Below, piece after piece: positions 52,347 to 54,124 of a stretch of DNA of 64,000 nt (position 1 is its first letter; the number at the start of each line of letters is the position of its first letter). This stretch comes from a virus, in the IMG/VR virus record IMGVR_UViG_3300024999_001421. One strand, written 5' to 3'. The position numbers were made by a program, and so were the translations under genes. Below the pieces are notes generated by a model. That model was not told the origin of the DNA. It did not search any database and saw only the letters and a program-made list of their open reading frames with translations.

Positions 52347-52550
52347 TTATTTACCGTCGACATATTCAAATAGATCTCCCGGTTGACATCTAAGTGTAGC
52401 ACAAAGACGATCTATAACTTCCAATGAAACATATTCGTTGGTATTTAGTTTTGCCATAGTGCCTCCAGATATTTTGGCTTGTTTCATTAAATCTTGTTTT
52501 TTTATATTTTTATCAATCAACATTTTTTGGAATAGTTTATAGCTAATCAA
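52347..52550 (-). CDS. Cro/C1-type HTH (HTH_26) regulator
   Basis: ISYKLF..L....IKKQDL...VSLEVIDRLC..L.CQPGDLFEYV. Confidence 0.88.
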   Translation of the reverse strand: MISYKLFQKMLIDKNIKKQDLMKQAKISGGTMAKLNTNEYVSLEVIDRLCATLRCQPGDLFEYVDGK

Positions 52551-52719
52551 ATTAATTTACCTCCTGTTTACTATATCTTAAATATATATATTATTATATC
52601 AAAAAATATTCGACAAATCAAAGATAATTATATTGACTTATATTTATGATATGTTATAATAATATTTAAGAAGTTGTAAATAATTACATACCAATAAGGT
52701 GTCTTAGGAGGAATACGGC

Positions 52720-53352
52720 ATGGGCAAAAACATTCTAACGGCAACAATCGAAATAAAAGGAATTAGACCTCTGTTGTGGCATGTATTTGGTCCTGATTCT
52801 TTGCCACTTGAAAAACAAGAGAGGACAGGAGTTGCCGGACACGATCCGGAGGAATGGCGCAAAACATATGTAGCAACCAAGAGTGGACAGTTATATTTAC
52901 CTGGTTCTTATTTCTTCGGAACATACATTGCAGGCGCTAAGTTCATTAAGAAGGGCAAAGGCTCAATTCAAAGTTTGGTATCAGCAACATTGCAGGTACT
53001 TGATGATAAGGTATTGGTTAATCGTAATTTACCGGAAGATATTCACGAAAAACCGCATAAGTATTATAATGCTGACGAAGAATTGGTTTATATTGACGTT
53101 CGCTCAGTACGTAATCCGTCAACCAAGTCTAGAAACATTCGTTATCGCGTTGCTACTTGCCCCGGATGGGAGTGTAAATTTTCAATAATGTTCGATAAAA
53201 CGGTTGTTAGTCGCCAAGAGATGCACTCTGCTATTATTGATGCAGGTAAATTGTCCGGCATTGGCGATGGTCGTTCTGTTGGATATGGAAGATTTGATGT
53301 ATTATCTTTTGAAATACAGGAGGAAGATAATGCCGAGGAAAAGACCTCCTAA
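52720..53352 (+). CDS. solitary Cas7/Csm3-like RAMP protein
   Basis: IEIKGIRPLL (beta1), LYLPGSYF, C-terminal Gly-rich loop GIGDGRSVGYGRF. Confidence 0.8.
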   Translation: MGKNILTATIEIKGIRPLLWHVFGPDSLPLEKQERTGVAGHDPEEWRKTYVATKSGQLYLPGSYFFGTYIAGAKFIKKGKGSIQSLVSATLQVLDDKVLVNRNLPEDIHEKPHKYYNADEELVYIDVRSVRNPSTKSRNIRYRVATCPGWECKFSIMFDKTVVSRQEMHSAIIDAGKLSGIGDGRSVGYGRFDVLSFEIQEEDNAEEKTS

Positions 53353-53620
53353 AGAAATATGGCAAAAACTAAGAACAATAGTCTGGGAACGAGATAAGGG
53401 TAAATGTAAGCACTGTGGCAAACTAGTTGACTTAGATAAATGTCACATAGATCATATTCGTTCTGGTAAGTTAGGAACAAATAAGTTAAGCAATCTTAGA
53501 ACTCTATGTCGTTGCTGTCATGTTTTGCGTGAGGATGGGCGACATAGAGGGATGATTAGCAAGGCACTTAAAGATGGTATTATTCCTCCGAATTGGCGTG
53601 AGTTGGTTTGGGGTGATTAA
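53330..53620 (+). CDS. small HNH endonuclease (96 aa) overlapping RAMP stop
   Basis: W..LR..VWERDKGKCKHCG...HIDHI...GTNKLSNLRTLCRCCH; AGGAGG RBS inside RAMP gene. Confidence 0.9.
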   Translation: MPRKRPPKEIWQKLRTIVWERDKGKCKHCGKLVDLDKCHIDHIRSGKLGTNKLSNLRTLCRCCHVLREDGRHRGMISKALKDGIIPPNWRELVWGD

Positions 53621-53639
53621 TATACTGTATAATTAATCA

Positions 53640-53734
53640 GGTCGGGAACGAAGCGGAATGGTGAGTTGCGGTCCGGAGTGGTACGGAGAGCTGAGGCATG
53701 GCACGTTAAGGTGCGCAATGAAATGGTAAGGATT
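53640..53734 (+). repeat. pentameric G(G)HNN array 1 (19 units), candidate guide RNA
   Basis: G at every 5th base 19/19, GG 13/19; TATAAT at 53628-33 immediately upstream. Confidence 0.85.
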
Positions 53735-53738
53735 CGAA

Positions 53739-53796
53739 ACTACCCTTCGGGGTAGTCCTACAGGTTAGCCTCCTGTAGTTGACAAGATGGGCTAAC
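53739..53796 (+). ncRNA. structured linker: UUCG hairpin + H-type pseudoknot
   Basis: ACTACCC-TTCG-GGGTAGT; CTACAGG-ttagcct-CCTGTAG with loop complementary to GGGCTAA at 53789-95. Confidence 0.75.
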
Positions 53797-53798
53797 AT

Positions 53799-53883
53799 GG
53801 AAAGGTCTGGACTGGAACGGAACGTAGGGGCATGGAAAGTTCCGGAGTGGTTTGGTTCGGATTGGCTAGTTAAGGCAAGGGTA
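53799..53883 (+). repeat. pentameric G(G)HNN array 2 (17 units), candidate guide RNA
   Basis: G at every 5th base 17/17, GG 14/17. Confidence 0.85.
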
Positions 53884-53885
53884 AT

Positions 53886-53925
53886 AAGAGAAATAACCAC
53901 TTCATATGAAGTGGTTATTTCTCTT
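53886..53925. terminator. perfect 40-bp palindrome, likely bidirectional terminator
   Basis: AAGAGAAATAACCACTTCAT|ATGAAGTGGTTATTTCTCTT between convergent units. Confidence 0.75.
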
Positions 53926-54124
53926 CCGGCACATATTCAAATAAATCTCCTGGCTGACATTTGAGGACTTGACACAACTTGCTGATCTGCTCTATCTCTA
54001 TTCTCCTAGAAGTACCGTGCCATAACTGACTTACTGTATTTGGCCTAATTCCTGTCATAATGGATAATTGTTTCATTGTTATTTTTCTTTTACCCATCAT
54101 ATCTGATACTTTTATTATCATCAT
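53915..54124 (-). CDS. Cro/C1-type HTH (HTH_26) regulator
   Basis: QLSIMTGIRPNTVS...LC.VL.CQPGDLFEYV. Confidence 0.88.
   Translation of the reverse strand: MMIIKVSDMMGKRKITMKQLSIMTGIRPNTVSQLWHGTSRRIEIEQISKLCQVLKCQPGDLFEYVPEEK

What the first reader, a model, noticed from the sequence alone, without database searches (positions are those of the whole stretch)
53735..53798. Structured linker between the two arrays: C(UUCG)G hairpin plus H-type pseudoknot
Seen: a 7-bp stem with a UUCG loop (53739-56), then a 7-bp stem (53758-78) whose loop TTAGCCT is complementary to GGGCTAA (53789-95) just before array 2. Inference: a processing signal, 3'/5' cap or polymerisation boundary that separates the guide units, functionally like a CRISPR repeat handle.
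Basis: partly seen in the sequence, partly recalled or inferred. Interest (0 to 1): 0.7.

Follow-up and report, generated by a model that had tools for sequence, protein, structure and literature searches.

The report
Hammerhead ribozyme between two VIPR guides
The "linker" is a small self-cleaving RNA, a type II hammerhead ribozyme with a rare but known core variant. It most likely cuts one phage transcript into two guide RNAs of a VIPR system, a CRISPR-like system first described in 2026, so it is a real but already explained kind of element.

Summary
There is a 7-bp UUCG hairpin (53739-56) and a 7-bp hairpin (53758-78). The loop of the second hairpin pairs with 53789-95.

These are not separate signals. 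They are stem III, stem I and the loop-I/3'-tail pseudoknot of one type II hammerhead ribozyme (53733-53795). GAA, A15.1-U16.1, a GUC cleavage triplet and a short open stem II are all in place.

The core reads UUGACAA instead of CUGAUGA. The C3-G8 pair is replaced by U3-A8, a natural covariation reported to be active. Rfam therefore misses the window's copy.

Rfam does hit the equivalent linkers of close relatives (36.3 and 35.8 bits, cut-off 37). A model built only from 18 hammerheads of related loci finds the window's linker as its single hit in 64 kb (58 bits, E about 2e-14). Twenty copies show covariation in all stems and in the pseudoknot.

The host locus is a phage VIPR system: a Vipr RAMP protein homologous to SUSP1 Vipr (PDB 36pp), an HNH accessory gene and two arrays of 19 GG-pentamers. 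The VIPR preprint already describes hammerhead-interspersed arrays. This scan has also met such arrays on other DNA.

Predicted cleavage is between 53757 and 53758. Activity is not tested.

The parts
52633..52660 (+). Promoter-like site upstream of the vipr gene (TTGACT-16-TATAAT with TG). It could drive one transcript covering vipr, HNH and both guides.
   Evidence: 11 of 12 consensus matches; function not shown
52720..53352 (+). vipr gene: 210-aa minimal RAMP (Cas7-like) protein
   Evidence: Family profile A1 matches PDB 36pp_D 'SUSP1 Vipr protein' at E 7e-9 over residues 9-192. The AF2 model (pLDDT 77) matches Csm3/Cas7 chains at E about 1e-8. Weak Cas6/Csm4 HMM hits. phrog_4652. 1293 homologues without names.
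53330..53620 (+). 96-aa HNH nuclease gene overlapping the end of vipr; a vap-type accessory gene
   Evidence: Pfam HNH PF01844, E 1.8e-6, above its cut-off
53628..53633 (+). TATAAT box preceded by TG; a possible internal promoter for the guide transcript, with a weak -35
   Evidence: Sequence. Not listed by the promoter scan. A TATAAA/TATAAT-like box occurs at the same place in L004, L005, L007 and L008.
53640..53734 (+). vrRNA array 1: 19 GG-pentamer units
   Evidence: 95.7% identical to the single array of L005
53733..53735 (+). Hammerhead stem II, 3' strand (U11.3 U11.2 C11.1). It lies inside the last pentamer of array 1 and pairs with 53786-53788: G-C, A-U, then a U.U mismatch.
   Evidence: Sequence. 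Covariation of this helix in 20 copies, 91% paired. The mismatch sits at the mosaic junction.
53736..53738 (+). Hammerhead core G12 A13 A14
   Evidence: Invariant in all 20 aligned copies
53739..53756 (+). Hammerhead stem III: A15.1-U16.1 plus 6 bp, closed by a UUCG tetraloop. It would become the 3' hairpin of guide 1 after cleavage.
   Evidence: 5 of 7 pairs change on both sides, 96.9% paired
53757..53757 (+). C17 of a GUC triplet. Predicted self-cleavage is 3' of this base, between 53757 and 53758.
   Evidence: Position relative to stems III and I in the alignments to the Rfam and own models; cleavage itself is inferred
53758..53778 (+). Hammerhead stem I hairpin (7 bp, 7-nt loop)
   Evidence: 7 of 7 pairs change on both sides, 98.6% paired
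53779..53785 (+). Hammerhead core strand UUGACAA (consensus CUGANGA): U3 and A8 replace the C3-G8 pair
   Evidence: L008 shares it (UUGAUAA). U3-A8 covariation is natural and reported active (PMC3088659; PMC4209133).
53786..53788 (+). Hammerhead stem II, 5' strand (G10.1 A10.2 U10.3)
53789..53795 (+). 3' strand of the pseudoknot. It pairs with loop I (53765-53771).
   Evidence: The pseudoknot was not part of the covariance model, yet 5 of 6 pairs change on both sides and 82.8% of cells are paired. This is the defining tertiary contact of type II hammerheads.
53799..53883 (+). vrRNA array 2 (about 17-19 GG-pentamer units; the in-phase run starts at 53789)
   Evidence: 98.9% identical to array 2 of L008
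53884..53925 (+). Perfect long hairpin followed by a U-rich stretch: transcription terminator and 3' hairpin of guide 2
   Evidence: similar terminators in L004 and L007; not listed by the simple terminator scan

Best explanation
Bases 53733-53795 are a type II hammerhead self-cleaving ribozyme. It sits between the two guide RNAs (vrRNAs) of a phage-encoded VIPR system: a Vipr RAMP protein, an HNH accessory nuclease and pentamer-repeat guides.

The UUCG hairpin is stem III and the second hairpin is stem I. Stem II is the short open helix formed by the last bases of array 1 and the GAU after the core. The 'H-type pseudoknot' is the usual loop-I/3'-tail tertiary contact that holds stems I and II parallel.

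The ribozyme should cut co-transcriptionally after C53757. This would release guide 1 (array 1, GAAA and the UUCG hairpin, ending in a 2',3'-cyclic phosphate). It would also release guide 2 (a 5'-OH, the stem I/pseudoknot leader, array 2 and the terminator hairpin). Vipr protomers then coat each array.

Shown here: the fold, its homology to canonical hammerheads in related VIPR loci, covariation, and the VIPR identity of the locus. Inferred: actual cleavage, given the U3-A8 core variant, and the ends of the mature guides.
For: 1. Every hammerhead element is in the right order and spacing: C11.1, G12 A13 A14, A15.1-U16.1, GUC17, stem I, U4 G5 A6 and A9.

2. Rfam Hammerhead_II hits the equivalent linker in L001/L002 (36.3 bits, E 6e-4) and L004 (35.8 bits). 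Their Vipr proteins are 85% and 96% identical to the window's.

3. Model R2 was built from 18 hammerheads of 9 related loci, without the window or L008. It finds 53726-53803 full length at 58.1 bits, E about 2e-14, as the only hit in the window.

4. Covariation in 20 copies: 20 of 24 pairs change on both sides. This includes the pseudoknot, which the model did not contain. The slid controls fall to 32-43% paired.

5. PMC3088659 reports that most type II hammerheads have a pseudoknot of 4 or more bp between loop I and the bases just 3' of stem II. It also reports that stem II can be as short as two pairs, and that C3-G8 covaries to U3-A8 in natural ribozymes shown active in vitro.

6. The U3-A8 core is shared by L008, which differs at N7, at one pseudoknot base and in stem II. 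The variant has therefore persisted with all helices intact.

7. Locus identity: the Vipr profile hits PDB 36pp 'SUSP1 Vipr protein', there are GG-pentamer arrays, and the context is phage. The VIPR preprint describes hammerhead-interspersed arrays and reports confirming them by sRNA-seq.
Against: Rfam's Hammerhead_II model does not report the window's copy even at E <= 10 on a 101-nt stretch.

Two of the seven nominally invariant CUGANGA positions differ. Stem II has only two standard pairs plus a U.U mismatch. The activity of this particular variant is unknown.

The U3-A8 state is seen in one lineage only (window and L008), so its persistence is weak evidence of selection. No RNA-end data exist for this locus. 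The nested MFE fold prefers the pseudoknot helix over stem I, though stems plus pseudoknot add up to a lower rough energy.
Confidence: 0.75

Rival explanations
1. A decayed hammerhead. The element descends from a ribozyme but the U3/A8 core and weakened stem II have killed catalysis. It now serves only as a folded spacer. The two arrays stay on one RNA or are separated by host RNases.
For: There is no Rfam hit. The core deviates at two conserved positions. A U.U mismatch in stem II was created at a recombination junction. Other core-deviant copies exist in this family: L076 has C at A9 and L012 has C at U4.
Against: The two core changes are exactly the pair-preserving C3-G8 to U3-A8 exchange reported as natural and active. 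Two random hits would rarely do this. All three helices and the 7-bp pseudoknot are perfect. L008 keeps the same core with an intact 3-bp stem II.
Confidence: 0.15
2. A protein-recognised handle. The hairpins and pseudoknot are bound by Vipr or a host factor as a 3' cap of guide 1, like the 3' pseudoknot tail of SUSP1 vrRNAs. Catalysis is irrelevant.
For: SUSP1 vrRNAs end in a pseudoknot that caps the filament. Array linkers in this Vipr clade are very diverse, including plain hairpins. Some boundary structure may therefore be all that is needed.
Against: The conserved single-stranded bases are the hammerhead catalytic core and not an arbitrary motif. The pseudoknot lies 3' of the scissile bond and next to array 2. 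The geometry matches type II hammerheads in every detail.
Confidence: 0.07
3. Chance structure, or a transcription terminator or attenuator between the arrays.
For: The folding z-score is only -1.99. Two adjacent 7-bp hairpins occur in about 0.5% of shuffles.
Against: Neither hairpin is followed by a U-run. Homologues show strong covariation and a significant leave-out model hit.
Confidence: 0.02

Closest known systems
Type II hammerhead ribozyme with loop-I/3'-tail pseudoknot (Rfam RF02276; Perreault et al. 2011, PMC3088659)
   Same: [quoted passage not shown] GAA, U4 G5 A6 and A9 are present, as are A15.1-U16.1 and the GUC cleavage triplet. A 7-bp pseudoknot links loop I to the bases just 3' of stem II. 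The setting is a prophage or phage.
   Different: The core has U3-A8 instead of C3-G8. This is a known natural covariation, but it is enough to drop the copy below Rfam detection. The third stem II pair is a U.U mismatch. Activity is not tested.
Hammerhead-interspersed vrRNA arrays of VIPR systems (bioRxiv 10.64898/2026.04.26.720920, fig. S19/S20)
   Same: A Vipr RAMP protein, an accessory (vap) gene, guides made of GG-pentamer repeats, and a hammerhead between adjacent guides. The system is phage-encoded.
   Different: There is only one ribozyme and two guides, and the second guide ends in a terminator hairpin. [quoted passage not shown] The third base of the unit is mostly A/U and not a pyrimidine. 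The VIPR type could not be assigned because the paper's tables are not held.
3' pseudoknot tail of SUSP1-clade vrRNAs (bioRxiv 10.64898/2026.04.26.720920 and 10.64898/2026.04.26.720927)
   Same: A conserved structured element that contains a pseudoknot and directly follows a pentamer array.
   Different: Here the pseudoknot belongs to a ribozyme and lies after the cut, so it would sit at the 5' end of the next guide. Only the UUCG hairpin would remain as the 3' tail of guide 1.
CRISPR repeat / crRNA handle
   Same: Role only: it punctuates a multi-guide transcript and leaves structured ends on the guides.
   Different: It is not a direct repeat (one copy). No Cas6-type protein cleavage is implied, because processing is RNA-catalysed. 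No CRISPR array or adaptation genes were seen among the genes examined around the locus.

Membership tests
Hammerhead ribozyme, type II (RF02276) | Three-way junction with stems I and III closed by loops and stem II open | tested here: met
   helices covary in 20 copies
Hammerhead ribozyme, type II (RF02276) | Conserved core: C3 U4 G5 A6 N7 G8 A9 and G12 A13 A14 | tested here: inconclusive
   G12 A13 A14, U4, G5, A6 and A9 are present. C3 and G8 are replaced by U3 and A8. This pair-preserving covariation is reported as natural and active (PMC3088659), but the literal consensus is not met.
Hammerhead ribozyme, type II (RF02276) | A15.1-U16.1 pair and a non-G base at the cleavage position 17 | tested here: met
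   A53739-U53756, C53757; GUC triplet
Hammerhead ribozyme, type II (RF02276) | [quoted passage not shown] | tested here: met
   53765-71 pairs with 53789-95; covariation in 5 of 6 pairs, independent of the model; PMC3088659
Hammerhead ribozyme, type II (RF02276) | Score at or above Rfam's gathering cut-off (37 bits) | tested here: not met
   No hit in the window at E <= 10. Relatives score 36.3 and 35.8 bits. The own leave-out model gives 58.1 bits.
Hammerhead ribozyme, type II (RF02276) | Site-specific self-cleavage giving 2',3'-cyclic phosphate and 5'-OH ends | not testable with these tools
   Needs a transcription/cleavage assay or RNA-end mapping
VIPR system | Vipr protein: a minimal single-RRM RAMP homologous to characterised Vipr | tested here: met
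   Profile A1 against PDB 36pp_D 'SUSP1 Vipr protein', E 7.2e-9, near full length; AF2 model resembles Csm3/Cas7
VIPR system | vrRNAs made of tandem pentamers with conserved GG and variable bases | tested here: met
   Two arrays of 19 units. The same periodicity is next to vipr in 116 of 148 sequences scanned (147 loci plus the window).
VIPR system | Adjacent accessory (vap) gene with a DNA-related function | tested here: met
   96-aa HNH gene overlapping vipr; also present in L001, L003, L004, L005, L007 and L008
VIPR system | Vipr-vrRNA complex that binds DNA by the gapped NN code | not testable with these tools
   Needs biochemistry; target search not attempted here
CRISPR repeat | The same sequence repeated directly between all spacers and processed by a Cas protein | tested here: not met
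   The window has a single copy of the linker. No tandem or direct repeat of it was found.

The most novel reading that the evidence does not exclude
The unit [hammerhead + following guide] is a portable cassette by which related phages swap or add VIPR guides. This would be a recombinational substitute for CRISPR adaptation.

In the window, array 1 matches the single-guide locus L005. The hammerhead plus array 2 matches L008, and the terminator matches L004/L007. The junction falls exactly at the 5' edge of the ribozyme.

Stem II's 3' strand lies inside the last Vipr-binding pentamer. Vipr loading and ribozyme folding would therefore exclude each other. This could couple cleavage, or product release, to filament assembly. 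The slower U3-A8 core might tune that timing.
Probability: 0.15. Interest if true: 0.55.

Novelty: new member of a known kind. Interest (0 to 1): 0.3.

Why it matters
The finding settles what the linker is and predicts the exact ends of both guide RNAs. Anyone who wants to decode or reprogram this VIPR locus needs those ends.

It also shows that standard Rfam annotation misses VIPR hammerheads. The relatives fall just under the cut-off and the U3-A8 copy is invisible, so surveys of ribozyme-processed guide arrays will undercount them.

The mosaic of guide modules among near-identical phages hints at how VIPR guide sets are renewed. The kind of element, a hammerhead between VIPR guides, is already published, so it is not a discovery in itself.

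Tried and rejected
- Rfam on the window, at 1.4 kb and at 101 nt, E <= 10, gave no hammerhead. There were only weak hits to the terminator hairpin and meaningless miRNA hits.
- blastn and tblastn of the locus and of Vipr against GenBank phages and PLSDB plasmids gave no match.
None folds as a hammerhead, so they are chance matches and the test is inconclusive.
- A near-exact pattern of the window's stem I, core and pseudoknot in IMG/VR gave 0 hits.
- No whole genome is held for this window, so other copies in the genome could not be sought.
- I considered whether the pseudoknot 3' strand (GGCUA) doubles as the first Vipr-binding pentamer of array 2. By eye, in the window, L008 and L125, its GGC is one base out of phase with the array, and L001 has no GG there. 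I dropped the idea.
- The linker of L003 (two copies of a different element of about 45 nt) occurs on that one contig only and has no Rfam match. It says nothing about the window's linker.
- The preprint's supplementary tables are not held, so the VIPR type (I-VII) could not be assigned.

Full report
**What is there**

The stretch after the 96-aa HNH gene (53330-53620) is non-coding and ends in a long perfect hairpin (53884-53925). It holds two tracts of strict 5-nt periodicity. In 53636-53738, G occupies one phase in 19 of about 20 units and the next phase in 14. In 53786-53885 the counts are 18 and 15. The neighbouring coding sequence shows no such bias. An independent detector units at 53640-53734 and 19 at 53789-53883.

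- a 7-bp stem with a UUCG loop at 53739-53756;
- a 7-bp stem at 53758-53778 with the loop UUAGCCU;
- GGGCUAA at 53789-53795, which pairs with that loop by six Watson-Crick pairs and one G.U.

**What the locus is**

The 210-aa ORF at 52720-53352 has no Pfam family and only weak Cas6/Csm4 hits. It belongs to a large unnamed family, with 1293 homologues at E <= 1e-3.

A literature search for RAMP, HNH and pentanucleotide found the 2026 preprint that describes VIPR systems. These consist of a minimal RAMP protein (Vipr), an accessory gene (vap) and guide RNAs (vrRNAs). The guides are built of GG-containing pentamers whose variable bases read DNA in a gapped code.

Membership was tested directly:
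- A profile of 28 family members matches PDB chain 36pp_D, 'SUSP1 Vipr protein', at E 7.2e-9 over nearly the full length.
- An AlphaFold model (pLDDT 77) resembles Csm3/Cas7 subunits at Foldseek E about 1e-8.
- The window is a phage or prophage. It has terminase, portal, head protein and Ant genes, as expected for VIPR.

**What the linker is**

In L001, whose Vipr is 85% identical, the same place holds two hairpins and a pseudoknot. Every helix has a different sequence, and the unpaired bases read GAAAC...GUC...CUGAUGAG.

Rfam's type II hammerhead model hits that linker (L001/L002: 36.3 bits, E 6e-4). It also hits the linker of L004, whose Vipr is 96% identical (35.8 bits). The gathering cut-off is 37.

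Mapping the window onto hammerhead numbering gives:
- C11.1 = 53735
- G12 A13 A14 = 53736-38
- stem III = 53739-56 (A15.1-U16.1 plus six pairs, UUCG loop)
- C17 = 53757, in a GUC triplet
- stem I = 53758-78
- core strand = 53779-85
- G10.1 A10.2 U10.3 = 53786-88
- pseudoknot = loop I (53765-71) with 53789-95

The predicted scissile bond lies between 53757 and 53758.

Perreault et al. 2011 describe exactly this architecture. Stems I and III are capped and stem II is open, often with as few as two pairs. A pseudoknot of four or more pairs links loop I to the bases immediately 3' of stem II, and it is needed for fast cleavage (PMC3088659).

**The deviation**

The window's core strand is UUGACAA and not CUGAUGA. 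Position 7 is free. Positions 3 and 8 are both changed, from C and G to U and A.

[quoted passage not shown] PMC3088659 states that they covary to U3-A8 in several natural hammerheads, and that such variants had been shown active in vitro. The same variant is abundant in Penelope-like elements (PMC4209133).

This change is enough to hide the copy from Rfam. There is no hammerhead hit at E <= 10, even on a 101-nt stretch.

Stem II has two standard pairs followed by a U.U mismatch.

**Evidence from relatives**

147 loci encoding Vipr relatives were fetched from viral, metagenomic and genome collections.
- A strict descriptor and then a covariance model found hammerheads between arrays on about a dozen distinct contigs (L004/L006/L104 and L001/L002/L009/L085/L086 are repeat fetches of the same contigs). 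There are seven in a row in L125 (Marinithermofilum abyssi), and two each in L095, L025 and L140.
- In an alignment of 20 copies, 90.3% of cells pair, against 68.8% in shuffles and 32-43% when partners are slid.
- 20 of 24 pairs show changes on both sides.
- The pseudoknot was not part of the model, so the alignment was not fitted to it. Its six-pair helix is 82.8% paired, and five of those six pairs change on both sides.
- Model R2, built without the window and L008, finds 53726-53803 end to end at 58.1 bits, E about 2e-14. This is the only hit in the 64-kb window.

The U3-A8 core occurs only in the window and in L008, which reads UUGAUAA. It is therefore one lineage, and its persistence is only weak evidence of selection.

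**How it most likely works**

One transcript carries both arrays. It starts either at the strong promoter-like site before vipr (52633-52660) or at the TG-TATAAT box at 53626-33. The ribozyme folds and cuts after C53757.

Guide 1 keeps GAAA and the UUCG hairpin as its 3' end. Guide 2 starts with the stem I hairpin, the core strand and the pseudoknot strand, and ends in the terminator hairpin. Vipr protomers then coat the arrays, as shown for SUSP1.

The fold and its ancestry are shown here. Cleavage and the RNA ends are inferred. Rough energies allow the ribozyme fold: stems I and III give -20.6 kcal/mol and the pseudoknot duplex -8.1 kcal/mol, against -23.6 for the best nested fold.

**Rivals**

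A dead ribozyme kept as a spacer is possible (about 0.15). The pair-preserving nature of the two core changes and the intact helices argue against it.

A purely protein-bound handle is unlikely, because the conserved unpaired bases are the catalytic core.

A terminator or a chance structure is excluded by the covariation and by the lack of a U-run.

**Context and novelty**

Linkers between arrays in this Vipr clade are very diverse. They include hammerheads, plain hairpins and very short spacers. This agrees with the preprint's remark on variable array architectures, which explicitly includes hammerhead-interspersed arrays reported as confirmed by sRNA-seq.

This scan had already met hammerhead-cut VIPR arrays in other genomes. 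I reached the same reading independently, before that look-up.

The finding is thus a correct observation of a known kind of element. It has two minor twists: the U3-A8 core, and the mosaic origin of the guide region. For the mosaic:
- array 1 is 95.7% identical to the single array of L005;
- the hammerhead and array 2 are 96.9% and 98.9% identical to L008;
- the terminator is like that of L004 and L007;
- the junction lies at the 5' edge of the ribozyme.

Noticed in passing
window 53636-53930, compared with L005:1998-2091, L008:1199-1350 and L004:5164-5212: The guide region is a mosaic among phages whose Vipr proteins are 94-96% identical. Array 1 equals the only array of L005. The hammerhead plus array 2 equals L008. 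The terminator resembles L004/L007. L005 and L007 have one guide and no ribozyme. The junction falls at 53731-53734, where the stem II U.U mismatch arises.
   Followed up: partly
L125:3360-4229 (Marinithermofilum abyssi, NZ_BMHQ01000020.1): Seven type II hammerheads in a row, about 125-145 nt apart, each between pentamer arrays. This is the largest ribozyme-punctuated VIPR array in the set and lies in a cultured Firmicute genome.
   Followed up: partly
L003:4610-5010 (IMGVR_UViG_3300031227_000001): Here three pentamer arrays lie between vipr and the HNH gene and not after it. They are separated by two copies of a different structured linker of about 45 nt (an 8-bp outer stem around GCUAGCC...GGUGCAACUCC). 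The linker has no Rfam match and no relatives in the other loci. How it is processed is unknown.
   Followed up: partly
L076:3482-3562 and L012:945-1019: These hammerhead copies have other core deviations (C in place of A9; C in place of U4) but intact helices. They may be decayed or unusual variants.
   Followed up: no
window 53868-53886; L004, L005, L007, L008 array ends: Arrays in this clade usually end with a conserved motif, AAGG-N-AAGGGUAAU, just before the terminator or the ribozyme. The window's array 1 lacks its last part (it ends GGUAAGGAUUC), as does array 1 of L001. This may be a 3' boundary signal for the Vipr filament.
   Followed up: no
L001:4987-5052, L004:5009-5074: Canonical VIPR hammerheads score 36.3 and 35.8 bits against Rfam Hammerhead_II, just under the 37-bit gathering cut-off. 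Default Rfam annotation would therefore miss them all.
   Followed up: yes
window 52347-52550 (-) and 53915-54124 (-): Two small Cro/C1-type HTH genes (PF13443, E about 1e-20) bracket the vipr-HNH-guide cassette. One is divergent from vipr and one is convergent on the terminator. They may be regulators or the edges of the phage's immunity region.
   Followed up: no
window 52720-53352: The Vipr protein matches PHROG family phrog_4652, listed as 'unknown function' (E 2e-13). That family can now be read as Vipr.
   Followed up: no
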